A DNA stretch of 62,808 bases, the filler included. It is 9 parts of 9 records of this genome, joined end to end, with 100 filler letters (N's around TTAATTAATTAA, not from the genome) between each part and the next. Parts side by side here need not be neighbours in the genome. Positions count along the whole stretch, not along the records: positions 27,951 to 31,727 come from SRR7504441_2140; 8 more parts are not named here. One strand, given 5' to 3'. Made by a program: the position numbers and the translations under genes. The notes below the pieces were generated by a model. It did no database searches, was not told where the DNA came from, and saw only the letters and a program-made list of their open reading frames with translations. The stretch's first letter is position 1. Every line of letters starts with the position of its first letter. Shown here one piece after another: positions 22,165 through 31,827 of this stretch.

Positions 22165-25100
22165 TTACGTCTCAACACGCCACAGAAGCAGATCCCCGTA
22201 GCTAGATGACACTATCTGCTCTCCGCCTTTGTCAAACCTGCAGCAAAGCACTCTCAGTATCGTTGATTGCTGAGTGGGCGCACTTGACACTAGTCACTTC
22301 CCCGGCGTGCCCGACAAAGTCTTGGAACACACCCCCGTGATAGTCCACCAGCTTGACCAACCGATCCGGAGTTCCAACCGCCATCTGCAATCCGGTCAGC
22401 TCGGAGCTGCCTCATATGCACACCAGGCTGCCGTCGGGCGACACATCGATGGAGCACACCAAGTGCTCCACTCTAATGCTCCGGAGCACTTTCCGGCTCA
22501 CAAAGTCGTAGACCACCACCGAGTCGCCGCTCGCTATCCCCGCACACACCAGGACCTGCCACAAAATCTCAACCGCCATACGGAGCTGCGGGCTACCGAT
22601 GGCTCTGTGGGGACAAATGCAGCCACCAGCCCGTGGTCGTGCCGCATGCAACGCGAGCTGCCCAGCCATTCAGACCCGAGCCGCGGCCGAGACCACCTGT
22701 GGCTCTGGGCTACTGGGTAGATGTCCTCCATAGAGAACCAGTCCACCACTTGCGCCTCGTCTTGCCCAGTTGACCATACTGATAGGCACTGGTCTTTAGA
22801 GCACGCGAGCCACCTGAACCGGCTCTACCAACGACAGGCGGGGGCATACCTCGTGCAGTCGGCAGAGGCTCGGATATTGCTGATGGGAGAGCCTCGGTGT
22901 TGCAGAAGGTCTTCGATGCTCATCCGTACAGTGGTGGCACACTCGGAGAGCCAGCTGAAGACGAGTCTGCCTTCGGAGGAGCCAGTGAGCACCAGGAAGC
23001 CTCCAGCACACGCCGAGGCGTGGAGTGCCGTGACTCCACCCTCGGGGTGGACAGAGTGCTCCAGCAACTGCTCACCAGACACATTCAGACGGAACACCCG
23101 GAGTGAGCCGTCGTCAAAGCCTGCCATGACCAGGTCCTTGACTAACGAAAGGCAGTTGCAGCAGCAGCGCAGCGGCTGGTGGATTTGGACCACCTCGTCG
23201 TGCTCGCCACCGGCCTCACAGATCCGCAGGTTGCCGTCCTCGCCGGCTGAGGCGATGTGGTTTTCATCCATGGCGACGCAGGTCACTAGTGAGGGGTGCC
23301 CCGCTCTGAGCTGCACTGCAGCCTCCACATTCCAATCGACAAACCAGAGACTAGAGGCCTTGGTCGTCACCACTCCACTGTGCGCTCCCTTGTCGAAAGA
23401 CATGGCAGAGACAAAGCCGTCTGGCAAGTTGATTTGATTCACCATGAGCGCTTCGTCTTCTGGGATCGGCAGGCGCCACCTCCGCAGCTGAGAACTAGCA
23501 TTGGCGACCACCAGATACTGGTCATTGCACCAGAGAGCTTCGATGGCCTCAGTGGCGGCAACAAAGCACCTCAGAGCAGTGGCCTCGGCGACATCCCAGC
23601 AAGAGATAATCCCGTTCTCGGAGCCAACATACATCCAGACTGGCACTGTCGCATCCGCACCCATCGCCCCGAGCTCAACACAGGTCAGTTTGCTGCCTTG
23701 TTGGGCCTCAGGCAGGTCGCCGCTGGTCGAGCTAGCGTCCCATCCCTCTTGCACTGTGGGAGATGTTTCCCAGAAGTTGATATGCTCCGGGCCACATGCA
23801 ATGAAGCAGTTTTGGGATCCAGGCTGCCACCGGATTGTGTGGCTGAATTGAGGACAGTTTGTTCCCTCAAACACGAGGTCTGCATTCTCTGTGCTCCACA
23901 GGTACAGCGCAGGGCTTGGATACTGATCAGCCGCTGCACAGAGCGACCCATCTGGGGACAGCGCCACCGACTGCACACCTCTCATGTTGGCCTTTTGAGA
24001 CTTGGCAAACAGCGCGCACTTGAGAGAGATGCTGCTGGTGTCCCAGATCATGACCAGTGGATCCTCTGCAGGACTAATGCGCGAGCATGCTCCGGTGGCG
24101 AGCCACAGGCCATCAGCAGATAGGCCCAGGCACGAAATGCTCGAGTGCAGCGCATGCTCACAGAGCAGCTGCTGAACTGGCTTGGTGCCCTTTGTTTGCT
24201 CAAAACACAGAATTGGGCCAATCGTGTAGATGAGTGAGTTTGCATCGAGAGCCACGTGATCGTGTGCAGTAGCGTCGATGCCAAACACATTCTCCAGAAC
24301 CATGCCTGCTTCGCCCGGTGGTGCCAGGAATCGGCAGTGCGATGGCATAGAATTAGTCTCCGCCGGCACCACATAATTTCCGGGCAGGGCTTCGCCTTGC
24401 GCCAGTGCATTCGACCACATCGCAGAGGGCGAGGAGCTGGTCTCTGAGATCATGTCTTGGGCAGCAACTAGACCCTGTGTCTGTGTGCCACAAGAGGGAG
24501 ACAGCATCGCCTCAGGCGATGGCTGGAGGTCGACAGGCTCACCCAGCCGCGCCTCCATTGCACGCACGTGGGCCAGCTGGGCCAGCACAGCTGCCTCTGG
24601 GCTGTCACCATCACTTGCTGAGGACATGAATGACATGGGCGAAGCGACTGCGGCAGCCGACAGCTTTGGCAGCTCCAGCCGCTGTGCTTCAGATAGCTTT
24701 GACAACTCATCCTCCAGCTCGCAATCTGGAGCCTCAGGTTCGGCGACAGGCTGCTGTGCTGCCACACTGGCAGCTTCTACTTCATCCAGGTGTGCCTCAG
24801 CCTCCAGGGCTGCCTCTTGAACAGACAGGAGTGGCTCGGCATCCAGCTTGTCAAACAGGCCAGCCGGCAACAAGGCCGCTTCACCGCTGAATCTCCAGAA
24901 GTAAACACCATTTCCTTCACTGATCGAAGCCAGCCGCCTGCCTTCATCAAAGAATGAGACCTGGCTGATCGCTCCGGAATGGCCAATGAAAACTTGCGAT
25001 GGCAGAACAGCGGGCCACGACTCGGCTGAGATGTCAACCACTGTCATCACCTGAGACTTTCCGCTGAGAATGGCGTATTTCCCATTTGGCGAGACCGTGA

Positions 25101-27728
25101 GAGCTCCCTCCTCACCGGATCCGAATCCTGAGCTCTGGTTCTCAAGTTTGCCTGTGAGGAGGTGGTAGCTCAGCAGCCGGCCATTGCTTGAGGTGGCGAG
25201 CAGCCGCTGCGAGTCTGCACTGACGCACAGGTGGGTGAACCGCTCATCTGATCCTTCCGCGAGCTCTAGTTTAAGACGCTCTTCGAGCGAGTCAGCTTCA
25301 AACACCACAGCACTAGCGTTCGGAGGTACCAGCGCGACCAGCCATGAGCCGTCGGGGCTCATCACCAAGGACATAGAGTCGGTTGGCATGCTGCCCTGGA
25401 GCACTCGGATCGCCTGATACCCCTTGGCGGCATCGTACACAAAGATGTTGCCGTCTGAGCCTGCTGTAAACAAGCGCTTGCCATCTGGCGAGTAGAGAAC
25501 GTGGGTCACTGCCCCTGCGTGCTGCATAAATTCGTGCAACCTGCATGTCTCTCGGATATCGAAAACCCTCAGGCAGCCGTTGTGGAACCCGCAGCTGATC
25601 ACGTTGAGAGTGGGATGGTAGGCCACGCAAGTGGCATGCTCACCGTGAGCATCAAACTGGTACAGCTGCTCGTATGAGTCTAGATCCCAAACCCTAATAG
25701 ACCCGTCCTTCGAGGTGGTGCTGATCTCGCGGGTTGCCGGGTTAACGGCAAAGCTGAGCACGGTGTCGGTGTGCGAGCGCATCAGGGTGGTGTGCTCTGT
25801 GGTGGCCAGATCGAGCACCCCAATCGATCCAGAATCTGACCCGATCGCAACTCGGTATCCGTCGGGTGAGATGTCCACCGATGAGATCGGGCCCACGTGG
25901 GCGGCCTCGAGCATAGTGTACGAGAAGTCCAGCGGCCAGACGTGCACCTTCCGGTCAGCGGAACCCGTGACAACGTGGCCGGCGTCCATCACCATCGAGG
26001 TGATTGCGTGCCCAGGGTGCAGTTCATGCACTGTCTCTAGCTCTCTAGACGCGTACTGGAACTGGTGCACCCGCCCGTCGGAAGTGGCCGCGAAGAACCG
26101 GCGGCTGAGTAGATCAGGGGTGGTGTAGGCTGCTTCAAATCCGAGAGCCGTGAACTGAGGCAATTGCTGTGTCGACTCTGTCATCTTGACCGAAGTGCCG
26201 CAAAGCCTCTTCGATTCGAGCTGTTGGTGCCGCCTCCAGAACCGGATGTTGCCCTGGCCGCAGGTCACAACCCTCTCCCGCTCAACTGGCGAGAAATACG
26301 CCCGAGTGATCGAAGTCTCTGTAGTCTGTTTCCCGATCAGGCATGCGCCCGTGAAATCCTTAGCCTCGTCAGACTTGGCCTGCACAAGGTCAGCAATGTC
26401 CCAGAGCAGAATGAGCGTCTTGCCCCGCTCGTCTTTGCCCACGGCGCACACTTGGTGGCCCTCGTGTGAAATGGCGAGCGCACAAATGTCGCGATGGTGG
26501 CCCATTAATATAGCCACACACCGGCCTGTCGGTACTGCCCACACAAACACAGTCGGCGCCGGGCCGGATTGTGCCGAGGCCAGGTAGGTCCTATCGCCGG
26601 AGAATGCGAGCTCGCAGATCGGCTGCGTGTGTCCGTGAAGGAATTTCTGGGTCATGGCCTCACTCTTCTGGATCACGATCGAAGAGCCCGCTGCATACAC
26701 AGCTGCGGTCGAGTCCGAAGACCAGAGCACGTGGTTGCGCATCTGGTTGGACAGGCACAGCGTGTGGTCCAGCTCGAGCACCGGGTCCGGCAGGATCGGA
26801 TCGGCTGCGACAGCCAATGCGCGCTGCTGCACCACCTTAGGCCTCCGGCTCGGCTGCGGCTTGGCAGGATGGAGCGGCGGGCCCCGGGCCGACTTGGGCT
26901 GGCTGGCCGGCGGGTTTGGGTCCATGTTCTCCAGGTCGACAGCACCGGACTTATTGGCGATCGGGACCATTTGGGCTTCCCGTAAAGGGAACCACTGCCA
27001 TTCGTAGCTGTCACTCCAGTCATGCTCCGGATACACCGGGAACGCCATGTCGCGCGGCAGCGTGTCCGGGCTGTACACGTTGTCTGAGGTGAACGCGTTC
27101 CTTACCCACATGTTGGCACAGAACTGGAGCCCGCGCACGCAATTGAACCGATTCCCCGCCCGAGAGAACGAGAGGCCCATGTGGGCCTGGAGCGCCGCCT
27201 GGATGTCGATGGCCAGCACGGTCCACTTGGCGGTGGTCACCAGCGCCGGCAGGTGCAGCGTCCAGCCCTGCACTTTGGCCTCTTTGAATAGATTGCTCAT
27301 CGTGAGCCGCACCGCAAACATCTCAGAGGTCAGCACCTGCCGCCGGTCAGCCGCTGCCGCCCAGGGCAGGCCCACGTCCACGTGCAGCGCGAAGTACTTG
27401 CCGGGGGTCACTCGCAGCTGTACGTACAGCAGCCCGCCTGTCGACAGGGTCGGCCGGGCCCAGCTCGGGGGCCGGACCGGTCAGCCCGAGGTTGCCGCCC
27501 TTCTCGGCCGGGACGGTGATGCAGTTGGCGCTCGGGACGCTCCCGCTGATCCTGTACGCCACCTTTTTCAGGATCTTGTCCTGCCGCCCGCCGGTGAGCC
27601 GCGGGAAGCGGGCCGGGTCGGGTCACGATGCTGGGGGAGACGTCGCCCTCCGAGAGCTGGGACAGGGACTTGTCGAGGCCCACGTGCTTGAACACGTTGA
27701 CGAATGGGCCCTGCGACACCCGGTCCAT
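22165..27728 (-). CDS. WDR90: WDR90/POC16 centriolar protein (CFA20/DUF667 N-terminal domain + WD40 repeats)
   Basis: Spliced N-terminus QGPFVNVFKH...AYRISGSVPSANCITVP...LGLTG|GLLYVQLR..FALHVD, SNLFKE, LPRDMAFPV, many WD40 repeats, C-terminal FQDFVGH...LLLWRVET*. Alternative ATG at 27812. Confidence 0.9.
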
Positions 27729-29129: not shown

Positions 29130-30191
29130 CTAGTGTGGCCCGAATGGTGGGCACCCGGGGTAGCCAACAGGCATCCCGGCCGGTTTGGGCTGCCAGTATG
29201 GGCAAGCTTCTTGTGTCTGGATTGTTACTTGGTAGTTGCACTTGGTCGGCTGGGCCACGTCGGCAATCACTGGTTTGGTGGCGTTTGGATCACACATCAG
29301 AAGATACTCGGTTGAAATCTTTAGCCGATAGGTCGGATCGACACCGCCGTTATTAAACTTGATACTCACCCCACAACCGGTCATAAACACCCTGAAAGAG
29401 AAATTGCCAGAGCCATCCCACACAGCGTTGGTGCTGCACTGACCCGACTGTTCGATCTCGCCACTCACCGCTGAGGCCGGGAGTGGACTAAACCGGTTGG
29501 CGCAGCTGCACTCTGTTTCAGGCTGGCAGCACGGGGCCGGCTGCTCGAGGTTGCCACACACCGCCACCTGCCACCACTCGTACCCGTAGTCAGGATCAGT
29601 CCAGTTCAGCACGAGCCCCGCCAGGCTGCTGAACTCGAACCGCGGCCGCATCACCGAGCTGTTGAAGTCAGGACCCAGATACGGGTTAGCCAGCCCGCAT
29701 GCCGGCCCGGCAGCCGGCCCATCCTCGACGGCCAGGCAGCGAGTGGCGGCCTGGTCGCACCCAAACTGGAAGAGCGAGTGCCGCCGGGTGAGCGGGTCGA
29801 AATTCGGGAAGAAACGCTCGAACCGCTGACGGTGGTCGCCGGCCCTGCAGGTGCCGATCGCGAGCGGGCCGCCACATCCGGTGGCGTAGAGGCATCCGCC
29901 GGTGCCCCGGAAGGCGCGGAGGGTCTTGTCCGTTGTGTTGAACATCCACTGGGCTGAGGTCAGCTCCGGGGTGTCGGTCAGCTTGACGCCTGTCGGCCGG
30001 TCGGAAGAGCCGGTCGCCTGCACGGCCAGCCCGGTCGGCACGTGCTGGATCATCGCCATGTCCGTATACTCCCAGGTCTGGGCAGCCGCACCCGGCGAGC
30101 ACGTCTGAAGTCCGAGCGATGCGGCTGACGCAGCCGCCACAGCCAGCCAGAGCGCGCACAGACCGGCCTGTCTTCCCTGCTGTCTTCCCAT
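29130..30191 (-). CDS. Secreted protein: ricin-B/beta-trefoil-like lectin + mannose-6-phosphate-receptor-homology (MRH)-like domain
   Basis: Signal peptide; C...QTW, AQW, C...QRF repeats; C-terminal FEFSSL...VAVCGNL...LMCDP...CNYQVTIQTQEACP. Confidence 0.6.
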   Translation of the reverse strand: MGRQQGRQAGLCALWLAVAAASAASLGLQTCSPGAAAQTWEYTDMAMIQHVPTGLAVQATGSSDRPTGVKLTDTPELTSAQWMFNTTDKTLRAFRGTGGCLYATGCGGPLAIGTCRAGDHRQRFERFFPNFDPLTRRHSLFQFGCDQAATRCLAVEDGPAAGPACGLANPYLGPDFNSSVMRPRFEFSSLAGLVLNWTDPDYGYEWWQVAVCGNLEQPAPCCQPETECSCANRFSPLPASAVSGEIEQSGQCSTNAVWDGSGNFSFRVFMTGCGVSIKFNNGGVDPTYRLKISTEYLLMCDPNATKPVIADVAQPTKCNYQVTIQTQEACPYWQPKPAGMPVGYPGCPPFGPH

Positions 30192-30277
30192 TCCCGAGGC
30201 TGACCCGGGCACCCGGCGAAAATAACGGCAGCAGCTGCGCGGGCTGCCCCGATCGCGAGGTGTGTTCTGTCATCAGC

Positions 30278-31434
30278 ATGCCGACGGTCACAGTTCAGGT
30301 CCCATCGGCGCGTCACGGGGCGATCATCGGGCCGCGCGGGTCCACGATCCGCGGGCTGCAGGAGGCGCACGACTGCCGGATCAGCATCCCGCGGGACGGA
30401 TCCTCGGCGGTGCTGATCGAGGCGCCAGAGCAGCCCAACCTGGAGGCCGCCACCGCCGCGCTCTCCGAGATCGTGGGCTGGACACTGAGCGACGCCCCGC
30501 TGCAGCAGATGGGGCTCGGCGTGGACCCGTCAGAGTTCGGCCGAGTGATTGGGCCGCGGGGGAGCAAGCTGCGTGAGATCGAACAGAGCGCCGGCTGCCT
30601 GGTGCGTGTGCCGGGCAACCGCGATCGTGAGCTGGAGCACCTCACGCTGGAGGGCCCGCCAGACGGGTGCGCCAAGGGGAAGGAGATGGTGGAGGAGGCG
30701 ATCGGCCGGGCAGTCGCGGTGATCGGCGAGCAGACCGGGACCGACAGCCTGCTGGCCCCGGCACCTGTGATTGACCTAATGCGCTCTTCTTCGCTGATTC
30801 ACGAGGCACTCTTCTTTCCGGATACGGACCCAGAGAAGGAAAACTTCAGCCGGTTCTTGGACTACCTGCGCTCGGCCCGAGAGCAGATCAAGGTGTGCAT
30901 CTTCACGATAACCGACCCCGCGATCGCGACCGTTCTAGTCAAGCTCCATGAGTCGGGCATCCAGGTAACTGCAAATCCGGCGGGCTGACGGGGCTGGGGC
31001 AGTGCTCGCTGATCACGGAGGACTCGACAGTGCACAACTCGGGCAGTCAGGTGGAGAGGCTGCTGGAGGCAGGGCTCCAAATAAGGGTGGACAACAGCCC
31101 ATACCTGATGCACCACAAGTTTGCCACTCTGGACGGGGCCTGTCTGCTCACCGGCAGCTTCAACTGGACACAGTGACCGCCCGGCCGGGGCTGGCGAGTC
31201 TGGGGGTGCAGCGAGGCTGCCAGCCATAATGCTGAAAACATCTTGTTTACCAACAATCCGGAGTTTGTCAAGCAGGTGCGTCGCCCGGCCCGGGCCGGCT
31301 GAGGCGGGGCCCAGTTTGAGATCGAGTTTGATAAGTTGTGGCAACAGTTTGAGCCGCTGACTGCCGAGGGCCACGAGGCACTGAGGACGCAGGATTTTAG
31401 TCAGGCGCACGACCGAGCCAGGAACGCGCACTAA
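30278..31434 (+). CDS. Tandem KH domains fused to Zucchini/PLD6 (Nuc-type) phospholipase-D nuclease domain
   Basis: KH loops IIGPRGSTIR and VIGPRGSKLR; EALFFP; after introns 30965..31002, 31173..31211 and 31276..31314: MHHKFATLDGACLLTGSFNWT..NAENILF..FEIEFDKLWQQF. Confidence 0.9.
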
Positions 31435-31727
31435 TTGGCCCATGGTTTCCTTGTCTGGGTTAACTTTAACATTGAAGACGCGATGCACAAGTACATAATT
31501 AATTATCCGATAACCGGCTTACATCCAATGCTTAATACGTAGTGCTCACAATGCACTGCATGCATATACCGCATGCAGTGGGTCCATTTGAGTGCTCGAA
31601 ATTCCCGTTGCGGGGGACCGTTGTGGAAAGCTCATTCAGCTGAAGAGATGGCGCTCGCCAGCAGTGGATCGCTCATGGGCTCGGATGGGATCCTTTCCAA
31701 GGCCCTGGCCGAGTTCTTCGCCATGAT

Positions 31728-31827
31728 NNNNNNNNNNNNNNNNNNNNNNNNNNNNNNNNNNNNNNNNNNNNTTAATTAATTAANNNNNNNNNNNNNNNNN
31801 NNNNNNNNNNNNNNNNNNNNNNNNNNN
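31728..31827. other. Artificial contig-joining spacer
   Basis: N44-TTAATTAATTAA-N44. Confidence 0.98.

What the first reader, a model, noticed from the sequence alone, without database searches (positions are those of the whole stretch)
30278..31434. KH-KH-Zucchini/PLD6 fusion: candidate RNA-targeted endonuclease
Seen: one open frame carries two KH domains with intact GxxG loops (IIGPRGST, VIGPRGSK) into a PLD6/Nuc-type domain. Three 38-39-nt introns hide the catalytic half from the ORF track; spliced, it reads MHHKFATLDGACLLTGSFNWT...NAEN, a complete HxK(x4)D(x6)GSxN motif plus the downstream Glu. Established: animal Zucchini/PLD6 is a homodimeric single-strand nuclease of piRNA biogenesis with a mitochondrial anchor and CCCH zinc wing, and tandem KH domains occur in a separate piRNA-pathway protein (TDRKH/Papi). 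Here both the anchor and the zinc wing are absent (EALFFP is followed directly by DTDPEKENFSR), and KH domains occupy the N-terminus. Inference: a soluble nuclease that selects ssRNA through its own KH domains, possibly in small-RNA processing, transposon/virus defence or RNA decay in a protist. I do not know this architecture from characterised proteins.
Basis: partly seen in the sequence, partly recalled or inferred. Interest (0 to 1): 0.82.

Follow-up and report, generated by a model that had tools for sequence, protein, structure and literature searches.

The report
KH-domain fused PLD6-like nuclease gene
This is a real, spliced and expressed protist gene that joins two RNA-binding KH domains to a Zucchini/PLD6-like nuclease domain; the design is widespread in protists but apparently unstudied, and probably makes a soluble, self-targeting RNA-cutting enzyme.

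Summary
Window 30278-31434 (+) is a four-exon gene for a 346-aa protein. It has two Pfam KH_1 domains with GPRG loops, a linker, and a single-HKD PLDc_2 domain with an intact HxK(x4)D(x6)GSxN motif. All three 38/39/39-nt GT..AG introns are spliced out in contigs from marine RNA libraries. The spliced protein aligns end to end with intron-free transcript ORFs from other protists. Among solved structures the PLD domain is closest to mammalian PLD6, but it lacks PLD6's membrane anchor and Cys/His zinc wing.

The architecture is not unique. 72 of 247 fetched relatives carry KH plus PLD. Named members come from Monosiga, Thecamonas (annotated "phospholipase D6"), Rigifila, Flabellula, Vexillifera and Rhynchopus. 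Six literature searches found no paper on the fusion.

My best reading (about 0.6) is a soluble homodimeric HKD endonuclease whose own KH domains hold single-stranded RNA. A PIWI-linked role is unlikely as the general function: Monosiga has a member, while Argonaute, Dicer and Piwi are reported absent from it. I rate it a new variant of a known kind, of moderate interest.

The parts
30278..30964 (+). Exon 1 (229 codons): start codon, KH1, KH2, linker and the first part of the PLD domain
   Evidence: Open frame and translation. Pfam KH_1 at E=1.1e-25 in 2 stretches, with PLDc_2 profile positions 2-37 at residues 194-228. RNA contigs cover 30260-30629, 30680-30830 and 30855-30961.
30284..30463 (+). 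KH domain 1 (residues 3-62), GxxG loop GPRG at residues 18-21 (IIGPRGST = 30323-30346)
   Evidence: Pfam KH_1 best stretch is residues 3-62. Motif coordinates.
30503..30703 (+). KH domain 2 (about residues 76-142), GxxG loop GPRG at residues 92-95 (VIGPRGSK = 30545-30568)
   Evidence: Second KH_1 stretch and KH-I_KHDC4-BBP at residues 88-121. Domain limits are transferred from the AlphaFold model of homologue P0003. Coordinates.
30704..30805 (+). Linker between KH2 and the PLD domain (residues 143-176)
   Evidence: The equivalent stretch of P0003 (187-196) has pLDDT below 50. It is the gappy, variable region in the family alignments.
30965..31002 (+). Intron 1, 38 nt, GT..AG
   Evidence: Sequence. 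One RNA contig of run X3 skips it, with 107 and 44 letters on either side.
31003..31172 (+). Exon 2: PLD core with the catalytic motif H266-x-K268-(x4)-D273 (31111-31134) and G280-S-x-N283 (GSFNWT = 31153-31170)
   Evidence: Translation, PLDc_2 at E=4.3e-12, motif coordinates, RNA contigs of X3 and X7.
31173..31211 (+). Intron 2, 39 nt, GT..AG, holds an in-frame TGA
   Evidence: Skipped in one contig each of runs X3 and X7.
31212..31275 (+). Exon 3: ...EAASHNAENILFTNNPEFVKQ, with the conserved N-x-E-N (NAEN = 31228-31239)
   Evidence: N333, E335 and N336 (P0003 numbering) are conserved in 90% or more of the 45 family members.
31276..31314 (+). Intron 3, 39 nt, GT..AG, holds an in-frame TGA
   Evidence: Skipped in one contig each of runs X3 and X7.
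31315..31434 (+). Exon 4: last helix of the PLD domain (..FDKLWQQ), a 24-aa C-terminal tail, and the stop codon TAA at 31432-31434
   Evidence: The tail aligns with those of P0003 and P0006.

Best explanation
The gene encodes a soluble, cytosolic or nuclear 346-aa enzyme built from a tandem type-I KH module, a flexible linker of about 35 residues, and one half of an HKD (PLD-superfamily) nuclease active site.

Inferred mechanism. Two chains dimerise through the PLD domains so that the two HxK...GSxN motifs face each other and form one catalytic centre, as in Nuc and Zucchini/PLD6. One histidine attacks the phosphodiester and the other protonates the leaving group. The four KH domains of the dimer hold single-stranded nucleic acid, most likely RNA, and feed it to the groove. 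Substrate choice is thus built into the enzyme. Zucchini, by contrast, is placed on its substrate by a membrane anchor and by partner proteins. The likely cellular role is endonucleolytic RNA turnover, processing or defence that does not depend on PIWI or Argonaute.

Shown: gene structure, splicing, domain content, motif integrity, family-wide conservation, and absence of the anchor and zinc wing.

Inferred: dimerisation (in silico, on a homologue), nuclease rather than lipase chemistry, RNA rather than DNA, and the cellular role.
For: - Gene and transcript: the CDS is 1041 nt and in frame. All three introns are spliced out in RNA-library contigs from two runs. The protein is colinear with transcript-derived ORFs: P0003 at 52% identity over 345 columns, Rhynchopus at 33% and Thecamonas at 34%, each over about 320 columns.
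- Domains: two KH_1 stretches and PLDc_2.
- Conservation: in 45 family members both GxxG glycine pairs and H, K, D, G, S, N, N, E, N of the HKD region are conserved in 90% or more. The same HKD set holds in 72 members.
- Similarity to proven nucleases: mammalian PLD6 9lkx at 1.3e-26 and 4ggj at 2.7e-25, Nuc 1byr at 3.5e-12, fly Zuc 4gel at 1.4e-11, NucT 6ehi at 1.9e-06. Foldseek on the model of P0003 gives 4ggj at E 3.9e-12 (TMt 0.76), 1byr at TMt 0.88 and 6ehi at 0.81. The KH part matches the IMP1, IMP3 and PCBP2 KH1-KH2 di-domains.
- Homodimer of P0003 residues 36-387: ipSAE 0.72, best of 3 controls 0.00. That mark was reached by 21 of 30 proteins solved as pairs of one chain and by 0 of 23 solved as single chains. 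The runs agree in at least 69% of contacts and partner pLDDT is at least 73. The interface holds residues 303-310 (H307, K309), 320-322 and 332-336. Because Nuc and Zuc dimers are solved, this pass may come from memory.
- Relatives add other nucleic-acid-binding modules to the same PLD domain: a cold-shock domain in P0150 and HHH_3 in P0023 and P0026.
- The weak PADLOC matches are all to PLD-type nucleases of defence systems: DrmC 3.4e-10, DpdK and MkoC.
- PLD6 is described as an ssRNA endoribonuclease that leaves 5'-phosphates and forms its centre by homodimerisation (passages of PMC10783504).
Against: - No biochemical datum exists for any family member that I could find.
- KH domains also bind ssDNA, so RNA versus DNA is open.
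- PLD6 was first described, and is still annotated, as a cardiolipin hydrolase. The Thecamonas member carries that name.
- The structure and dimer predictions were made on homologue P0003, not on the window's protein. A spliced product could not be handed to those tools.
- The AlphaFold pTM of 0.66 and the low-confidence linker mean the position of the KH module relative to the active site is unknown.
- RNA support comes from short environmental contigs of four runs, 95-99% alike. None spans the whole CDS, and 30630-30679 and 30831-30854 are uncovered.
- The genome is not held, so co-occurrence with RNA-silencing genes in this organism is untested.
Confidence: 0.6

Rival explanations
1. It is a single-stranded-DNA nuclease. 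The KH di-domain binds ssDNA, as FUBP, hnRNP K and PCBP KH domains can, and the HKD dimer cuts DNA, as Nuc and NucT do. The role would be in repair, recombination or destruction of foreign DNA.
For: Nuc (1byr) and NucT (6ehi) are among the closest solved relatives. FUSE-binding protein and PCBP2 KH domains appear among the KH matches. Sister architectures carry DNA-type HHH_3 motifs. The PADLOC matches are to DNA-targeting defence nucleases, DrmC and DpdK.
Against: The best sequence matches are to PLD6, an ssRNA endonuclease, by 14 orders of magnitude in E-value over Nuc. The KH matches are mostly to mRNA-binding proteins (IGF2BP1-3, PNPase). Nothing here measures substrate preference.
Confidence: 0.17
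2. It is a small-RNA biogenesis nuclease, a protist counterpart of Zucchini with the Papi/TDRKH-like KH function in cis. It would cut precursors for Argonaute- or PIWI-bound guides.
For: Among solved proteins the PLD domain is closest to PLD6. In animals KH-domain proteins (Papi/TDRKH) bind piRNA precursors next to Zucchini (abstract of PMC8938449, in the listing).
Against: Monosiga brevicollis has a family member (P0051). Argonaute and Dicer are reported absent from M. brevicollis and Piwi was not detected in choanoflagellates (passages of PMC6040629). The anchor and zinc wing of Zucchini are missing. In the trees the KH-PLD rows do not group with the animal PLD6 rows, although the backbone is unresolved. 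The organism's PIWI/AGO content could not be examined.
Confidence: 0.1
3. It is a lipid phosphodiesterase (a cardiolipin or other phospholipid hydrolase), as the database names of its relatives say, and the KH domains serve localisation or regulation.
For: Source names: 'phospholipase D6 / mitochondrial cardiolipin hydrolase' for the Thecamonas member, and 'cardiolipin synthase-like enzyme' for P0006. These names are transferred, not tested.
Against: There is no membrane anchor or hydrophobic N-terminus, since KH1 starts at residue 3. The domain is fused to nucleic-acid-binding modules (KH, CSD, HHH) across the clade. The nearest solved relatives are nucleases.
Confidence: 0.05
4. It is a gene-model artefact: KH and PLD are two neighbouring genes, or the PLD half is a pseudogene broken by stops.
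For: The catalytic half is interrupted by two in-frame TGAs and one frameshift when read unspliced. No single RNA contig covers the whole CDS.
Against: KH2, the linker and the first 50 residues of the PLD domain lie in one uninterrupted exon. An RNA contig runs from KH2 into the PLD start (30680-30830), and spliced contigs remove exactly the three interruptions. Intron-free transcript ORFs of relatives have the same fused order. 72 of 72 family members match KH_1 and 71 of 72 match PLDc_2.
Confidence: 0.02

Closest known systems
Zucchini / PLD6 / MitoPLD (animal piRNA-biogenesis endonuclease; PDB 4ggj, 4gel, 9lkx)
   Same: Both have a single-HKD PLDc_2 domain. PLD6 is the best sequence match among solved structures (1.3e-26 and 2.7e-25) and the best fold match. 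The FFPD...HxK(x4)D(x6)GSxN...NxEN layout is the same. The predicted dimer puts the HKD motifs at the interface.
   Different: The window protein has no N-terminal membrane anchor and no Cys/His zinc-wing insert after FFPD. It has two KH domains at the N-terminus. The family occurs in a species reported to lack Piwi, Argonaute and Dicer. It does not group with animal PLD6 in the poorly resolved trees.
Nuc (Salmonella plasmid endonuclease, 1byr) and NucT (Helicobacter, 6ehi)
   Same: Both are minimal soluble single-HKD nucleases without a zinc wing. The fold match has the highest target TM-scores (0.88 and 0.81). In the FastTree, bacterial single-domain relatives lie next to part of the KH-PLD rows.
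   Different: The bacterial proteins consist of the PLD domain alone, with secretion or other leader sequences, and have no KH module. Sequence similarity is lower than to PLD6 (3.5e-12 and 1.9e-06).
Uncharacterised eukaryotic KH-KH-PLDc_2 proteins, e.g. Thecamonas trahens XP_013761341.1 ('phospholipase D6'), Monosiga brevicollis XP_001747759.1, and transcripts of Rhynchopus humris, Rigifila ramosa, Flabellula baltica and Vexillifera abyssalis
   Same: Same domain order and length (about 310-350 aa). The alignments are colinear at 30-34% identity over about 320 columns, and 52-58% to the nearest unnamed relatives. The same conserved GxxG and HKD residues are present. This is the family the window's gene belongs to.
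   Different: None of these appears to have been studied. Some members add a cold-shock domain or long N-terminal extensions. The Monosiga model shows only one KH domain.
KH-plus-nuclease designs with other catalytic folds: KHNYN/N4BP1 (KH + NYN RNase), RNase Y (KH + HD), PNPase (KH/S1 + phosphorylase). All recalled from memory, except that PNPase KH and a weak N4BP1-KH Pfam match appear.
   Same: The logic is the same: a KH module tethers single-stranded RNA to a ribonuclease in the same chain.
   Different: The catalytic domains are unrelated, so this is an analogy and not homology.
BfiI restriction enzyme (HKD nuclease dimer with a separate DNA-binding domain per chain; recalled from memory, no call)
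   Same: It is a precedent for a single-HKD nuclease dimer that gains specificity from a fused nucleic-acid-binding domain.
   Different: BfiI is bacterial, and its targeting module binds double-stranded DNA and is not a KH domain.

Membership tests
PLD superfamily, single-HKD nuclease group (Pfam PLDc_2; Nuc/PLD6 type) | HxK(x4)D(x6)GSxN motif intact | tested here: met
   H266-H-K268-FATL-D273 ... G280-S-F-N283 in the spliced protein. The same columns are conserved in 90% or more of the family.
PLD superfamily, single-HKD nuclease group (Pfam PLDc_2; Nuc/PLD6 type) | Profile match above Pfam's gathering score | tested here: met
   Read-through of exons 2-4 scores 46.5 bits against a cut-off of 27, E=4.3e-12. 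Exon 1 supplies profile positions 2-37.
PLD superfamily, single-HKD nuclease group (Pfam PLDc_2; Nuc/PLD6 type) | Nuc/Zuc fold | tested here: met
   Tested on the 52%-identical homologue P0003 only: AlphaFold pLDDT 87.6, and Foldseek best hits 4ggj, 4gel, 1byr and 6ehi at E 4e-12 to 7e-11.
PLD superfamily, single-HKD nuclease group (Pfam PLDc_2; Nuc/PLD6 type) | Homodimer that forms one active site from two HKD motifs | tested here: inconclusive
   In silico only, and on P0003: ipSAE 0.72 against best control 0.00, with the HKD residues in the interface. The pass may come from memory of the solved Nuc and Zuc dimers.
PLD superfamily, single-HKD nuclease group (Pfam PLDc_2; Nuc/PLD6 type) | Phosphodiesterase activity on nucleic acid | not testable with these tools
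   This needs purified protein and substrate assays.
Animal Zucchini/PLD6 (piRNA factor) | N-terminal transmembrane or mitochondrial anchor | tested here: not met
   KH1 begins at residue 3. There is no N-terminal hydrophobic stretch; the highest 19-residue hydropathy window is inside the PLD core at residue 203. Animal PLD6 sequences have hydrophobic N-termini in the alignment.
Animal Zucchini/PLD6 (piRNA factor) | Cys/His zinc-binding wing inserted after the FFPD strand | tested here: not met
   Lingula, Babylonia and Solemya PLD6, and the Pleodorina homologue, carry an insert of about 24 residues rich in Cys and His. The window protein and its KH-PLD relatives have a gap there.
Animal Zucchini/PLD6 (piRNA factor) | Works with PIWI proteins in piRNA biogenesis | not testable with these tools
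   The genome is not held. Indirectly, a family member exists in Monosiga brevicollis, for which Argonaute, Dicer and Piwi are reported absent.
Type I KH domain (Pfam KH_1) | Two profile matches above threshold, each with an intact GxxG loop | tested here: met
   KH_1 scores 89.6 bits against a cut-off of 21.5, in 2 stretches. GPRG stands at residues 18-21 and 92-95.
Type I KH domain (Pfam KH_1) | beta-alpha-alpha-beta-beta-alpha topology | tested here: met
   Tested on homologue P0003: E38-42, H45-52, H54-66, E69-72, E79-83, H87-101, and the same order again for KH2. Fold matches are to IMP1, IMP3 and PCBP2 KH1-KH2.
Uncharacterised eukaryotic KH-KH-PLDc_2 family | Same domain order, and colinear alignment over the full length | tested here: met
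   blastp of the spliced protein covers q1-337 of P0003 (52%), q1-319 of Rhynchopus P0145 (33%) and q1-320 of Thecamonas P0144 (34%). 72 of 72 members match KH_1 and 71 of 72 match PLDc_2.

The most novel reading that the evidence does not exclude
KH-KH-PLD is an ancient, pan-eukaryotic endoribonuclease lineage that works without Argonaute or PIWI. Members are seen in choanoflagellates, apusomonads, CRuMs, Amoebozoa, diplonemids and this unplaced marine flagellate. It would represent the ancestral soluble, self-targeting state of the PLD6 nuclease line. Animal Zucchini would be the derived form, in which the cis KH module was replaced by a membrane anchor plus zinc wing, and KH function moved to a partner (Papi/TDRKH). 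A single origin of the fusion is not rejected (p-AU 0.97). The relation to animal PLD6 is unresolved.
Probability: 0.15. Interest if true: 0.75.

Novelty: new variant of a known kind. Interest (0 to 1): 0.55.

Why it matters
PLD6/Zucchini has been argued over as a lipase or a nuclease, and its origin outside animals is poorly described. This work shows a widespread protist family in which the same catalytic domain is hard-wired to RNA-binding KH domains, and in variants to cold-shock or helix-hairpin-helix modules.

That is 'guilt by fusion' evidence that nucleic acid is the ancestral substrate of this branch. It also gives a simple soluble enzyme in which substrate selection by an HKD nuclease can be dissected.

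The family also shows that current names such as 'phospholipase D6 / mitochondrial cardiolipin hydrolase' in Thecamonas and other protists are probably over-transferred.

If the enzyme cuts RNA at KH-defined motifs, it would be a new eukaryotic RNA-decay or defence nuclease, and possibly a compact programmable ssRNA cutter.

Tried and rejected
- Whole-genome search: no genome is held for this window. PIWI/AGO/HEN1 co-occurrence and a second, canonical PLD6 in the same organism could not be checked.
- Earlier findings of the scan: nothing by place, sequence or words.
- ESM Atlas: the best scores were 0.81-0.82, below the 0.9 lead level. All were plain PLDc_2 clusters, and no KH-PLD cluster of 50 or more members appeared.
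- The search for related loci with alignment A1 in prokaryote genomes and in viral contigs: both calls failed because no stretch of the alignment was conserved enough.
- Organism identification through the neighbouring WDR90/POC16 gene: the best hit was an unnamed metagenome protein at 45%, and named hits were only 31-36%. The organism remains unplaced.
- Rfam scan of the window: no match.
- The 50-nt loose 5' end of one X7 contig before 30260: it is not found elsewhere in the window at up to 3 mismatches. By eye it resembles the window's own upstream sequence with indels. I take it as 5'-UTR divergence of a related strain rather than a spliced leader, but this is unproven.
- Stretches without RNA contig cover (30100-30259, 30630-30679, 30831-30854, 31044-31107, and beyond 31390) are not evidence of anything.
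- PLD-domain trees: the FastTree of 302 domains and the IQ-TREE of 66 have an unresolved backbone. I draw no conclusion on whether KH-PLD is sister to animal PLD6 or to bacterial Nuc-like proteins.
- One paper search failed on a term that was too short and was replaced by later searches.
- Supplementary files of papers were not consulted. The supplements of PMC6040629 and of the preprint 10.1101/2022.12.12.520048 (eukaryotic MkoB/PLD6 hits) might list these proteins.
Full report
**Observation**

The stretch 30278-31434 on the + strand was read and its frames listed. From the ATG at 30278 a 229-codon frame runs to 30964. It contains IIGPRGST and VIGPRGSK. Pfam finds two KH_1 stretches (E=1.1e-25, 89.6 bits against a cut-off of 21.5) and, at residues 194-228, the first 36 profile positions of PLDc_2.

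Downstream, the same protein continues in pieces. Exons 2-4 happen to share one frame. Reading them through with the two in-frame TGAs as X gives ...YLMHHKFATLDGACLLTGSFNWT......EAASHNAENILFTNNPEFVKQ... and ...FEIEFDKLWQQ.... Pfam matches PLDc_2 positions 54-126 of 132 at E=4.3e-12.

The three interruptions are 30965-31002 (38 nt), 31173-31211 (39 nt) and 31276-31314 (39 nt), each GT..AG. Removing them gives a 1041-nt CDS of 346 codons, with GPRG at residues 18 and 92 and HHKFATLD at 266-273.

**Is it one expressed gene?**

A search of public runs found only small shares of the stretch, in marine polyA or metatranscriptome libraries. I laid four of them, X1, X2, X3 and X7, from four studies. 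Their assembled contigs are 95-99+% alike to the window and carry all three joints:
- 30964|31003 in one X3 contig.
- 31172|31212 in one contig each of X3 and X7.
- 31275|31315 in one contig each of X3 and X7.

Further contigs cover 30260-30478, 30479-30629 and 30680-30830. The last one runs from the end of KH2 through the linker into EALFFPD.

No contig spans the whole CDS, two short gaps remain in exon 1, and these are environmental relatives rather than the sequenced isolate. Even so, KH2, the linker and the first 50 PLD residues are one uninterrupted exon.

Independent support comes from relatives:
- The exon-1 protein finds P0003, a complete 387-aa ORF of a EukProt transcriptome, at 50% identity and 100% coverage, plus two fragments.
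- The spliced protein aligns with P0003 over 345 columns (52%). It aligns with full-length proteins of Rhynchopus (33%), Thecamonas (34%), Rigifila, Flabellula and Vexillifera over about 320 columns.
- There are no gaps at the three exon junctions.

The artefact and two-gene reading is rejected.

**Anchor and zinc wing**

I aligned the protein with PLD6 of Lingula, Babylonia and Solemya, with a Pleodorina homologue, and with two bacterial proteins. The animal and algal proteins have an insert of about 24 residues rich in Cys and His directly after FFPD. The animal ones also have a hydrophobic N-terminus.

The window's protein and its KH-bearing relatives go straight from FFPD to the ...FSRFLDYL helix. 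KH1 starts at residue 3, and no hydrophobic N-terminal stretch exists. The start codon lies about 85 bp from the start of a divergent gene on the other strand, and three relatives begin at the same methionine. A missed upstream coding exon is therefore unlikely.

**What the catalytic domain is like**

Against all PDB sequences, homologue P0003 matches as follows:
- Mammalian PLD6: 9lkx 1.3e-26, 4ggj 2.7e-25.
- Nuc: 1byr 3.5e-12.
- Fly Zucchini: 4gel 1.4e-11.
- NucT: 6ehi 1.9e-06.
- KH region: IGF2BP1-3, PCBP2, FUBP and PNPase.

An AlphaFold model of P0003, built with a 45-sequence family alignment, has mean pLDDT 87.6 and pTM 0.66. It shows two beta-alpha-alpha-beta-beta-alpha KH units, a low-confidence linker (187-196) and a PLD fold. 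Foldseek places the PLD part on mouse and fly Zucchini, Nuc and NucT (E 4e-12 to 7e-11, target TM 0.69-0.88). It places the KH part on the IMP1, IMP3 and PCBP2 KH1-KH2 di-domains.

A two-copy prediction of P0003 residues 36-387 scored ipSAE 0.72, against 0.00 for the best of three controls. That mark was reached by 21 of 30 proteins solved as pairs of one chain and by 0 of 23 solved as single chains. The runs agree in at least 69% of contacts and partner pLDDT is at least 73. The interface is symmetric and made of the HKD strand (303-310), GS (320-322) and NxEN (332-336). Because Nuc and Zucchini dimers are solved, this shows likeness and may come from memory. It was also done on a 52%-identical homologue, not on the window's own spliced protein, which those tools do not accept.

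PADLOC gives only weak matches, all to PLD-type nucleases of defence systems: DrmC 3.4e-10, DpdK and MkoC.

**How common the architecture is**

- With P0003 as query, 600 proteins passed E<=0.001. Of the 120 listed, 31 carry both PF00013 and PF13091.
- The exhaustive representative search gave 13,701 hits at E<=0.001 and 115 at E<=1e-30. Many clusters of about 320 aa matched in one stretch over query 38-358.
- Using the two halves of the window's protein as phmmer queries, 72 of the 247 fetched proteins hit both halves. Of these 72, Pfam finds KH_1 in 72 and PLDc_2 in 71.
- Named members are Monosiga brevicollis XP_001747759.1, Flabellula baltica, Rigifila ramosa and Vexillifera abyssalis, then Thecamonas trahens XP_013761341.1 (named 'phospholipase D6 / mitochondrial cardiolipin hydrolase') and Rhynchopus humris. 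That covers choanoflagellates, Amoebozoa, CRuMs, apusomonads and diplonemids.
- Both GxxG loops and the H, K, D, GS, N and NxEN positions are conserved in 90% or more of 45 members.
- Variants exist: KH-KH-CSD-PLDc_2 (P0150), long N-terminal extensions (P0039, P0042, P0058), and, without KH, HHH_3 plus two PLDc_2 domains (P0023, P0026).

**Phylogeny**

A FastTree of 302 PLD domains put the window in a 24-row group with Monosiga. Most other KH rows fell in a group of about 48 next to a 56-row bacterial single-domain group. Animal PLD6 plus Pleodorina lay in a separate 22-row group. Supports were weak, and the KH label needed 14 changes.

I then built an IQ-TREE (LG+C20 PMSF, quick search) of 66 rows. 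It held 35 KH rows (26 of them drawn at random), 9 bacterial, 4 animal or algal, 10 tandem and 8 others. Its backbone was unresolved. Holding the 35 KH rows plus two nested unlabelled rows together gave a better likelihood than the free search, by +45.6, with p-AU 0.97. The two extra rows were named after seeing the tree.

A single origin of the fusion is therefore compatible with the data. The sister group is not resolved.

**Function**

The most economical reading is a soluble homodimeric HKD endonuclease that binds single-stranded nucleic acid through its own KH di-domains.
- PLD6 is described as an ssRNA endoribonuclease leaving 5'-phosphates, with its centre formed by homodimerisation of single-HKD chains (passages of PMC10783504).
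- PLD6 and MOV10L1 have been compared with the bacterial Mokosh defence system (passages of the preprint 10.1101/2022.12.12.520048).
- RNA rather than ssDNA is favoured by the much stronger similarity to PLD6 than to Nuc, and by the mRNA-binding character of the closest KH proteins. It is not shown.
- A general role in PIWI- or Argonaute-linked small-RNA biogenesis is unlikely. M. brevicollis has a member, while Argonaute and Dicer are reported absent from it and Piwi was not detected in choanoflagellates (passages of PMC6040629).
- A lipid role is unlikely without an anchor and with nucleic-acid-binding fusions throughout the clade.

**Literature**

Six full-text searches found no paper describing this fusion. 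They combined KH or K homology, PLD6, MitoPLD, Zucchini, HKD, PLD-like, PLDc, choanoflagellate, protist and related terms. Of the papers listed, I read only passages of PMC7641849, the Mokosh preprint, PMC3417536, PMC6040629 and PMC10783504. Supplements were not seen. The comparisons with KHNYN/N4BP1, RNase Y and BfiI are recalled from memory.

**Context**

The neighbours are ordinary nuclear genes: a WDR90/POC16 homologue, a P450, a ricin-B-lectin protein, an alpha-galactosidase, an M28 peptidase and an Rtf1 Plus-3 protein. They give no functional hint. The organism has no close named relative by the WDR90 test. The genome is not held.

**Verdict**

The claim of an unknown architecture must be softened to 'widespread in sequence databases, mis-named, and uncharacterised'. 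I rate it a new variant of a known kind and put interest at 0.55.

Noticed in passing
window 30965-31002, 31173-31211, 31276-31314: All three introns are 38-39 nt with GT..AG ends and a CTGAC/CTGAG-like motif near the 3' end. RNA contigs confirm them. Such uniformly tiny introns, 60% G+C, and start codons of divergent genes only about 85 bp apart point to a very compact nuclear genome.
   Followed up: partly
window 31729-31827: Assembly gap: two runs of N around the linker TTAATTAATTAA, which gives a stop in all six frames. It lies about 300 bp downstream of the gene, inside what looks like the start of the next gene (ATG near 31640).
   Followed up: no
window 29130-30192 (-): The divergent neighbour encodes a protein with a signal-peptide-like N-terminus and a Ricin_B_lectin domain (E=7e-09). 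One X7 RNA contig of the KH-PLD gene carries 50 unmatched letters upstream of 30260, right after an AG at 30258-59. This is either 5'-UTR divergence of a related strain or an unannotated 5'-UTR splice.
   Followed up: partly
P0077 (Pleodorina starrii) in the alignment: This green-algal PLD6 homologue has the Cys/His insert after FFPD, like animal PLD6. It has no hydrophobic anchor and starts MGGC.., a possible acylation site. The zinc wing is therefore not confined to animals.
   Followed up: no
P0150; P0023 and P0026: Sister architectures occur on the same PLD domain: KH-KH-cold-shock-PLDc_2, and HHH_3 followed by two PLDc_2 domains (an intramolecular pseudo-dimer). 69 of the fetched proteins have two PLD domains.
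   Followed up: partly
P0003 residues 1-35: The N-terminus of the closest transcript ORF (MIRRPPRSTLSSSS...) has pLDDT below 50 and no counterpart in relatives. From memory it resembles a common library-adapter-derived artefact in Trinity assemblies. The true start is probably the M at residue 36.
   Followed up: no
window 22825-27480 (-): A single 1551-codon open frame encodes a WDR90/POC16-type centriole and cilium protein, which suggests a flagellated organism. Its best named relatives are only 31-36% identical, and the best hit overall is an unnamed metagenome protein at 45%.
   Followed up: partly
P0144 (Thecamonas trahens XP_013761341.1) and P0373 (Rhynchopus humris): KH-KH-PLD proteins are named 'phospholipase D6 / mitochondrial cardiolipin hydrolase' or K16862/PLD6 by their sources, although they lack the anchor and zinc wing. 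This is likely over-transfer of annotation.
   Followed up: partly
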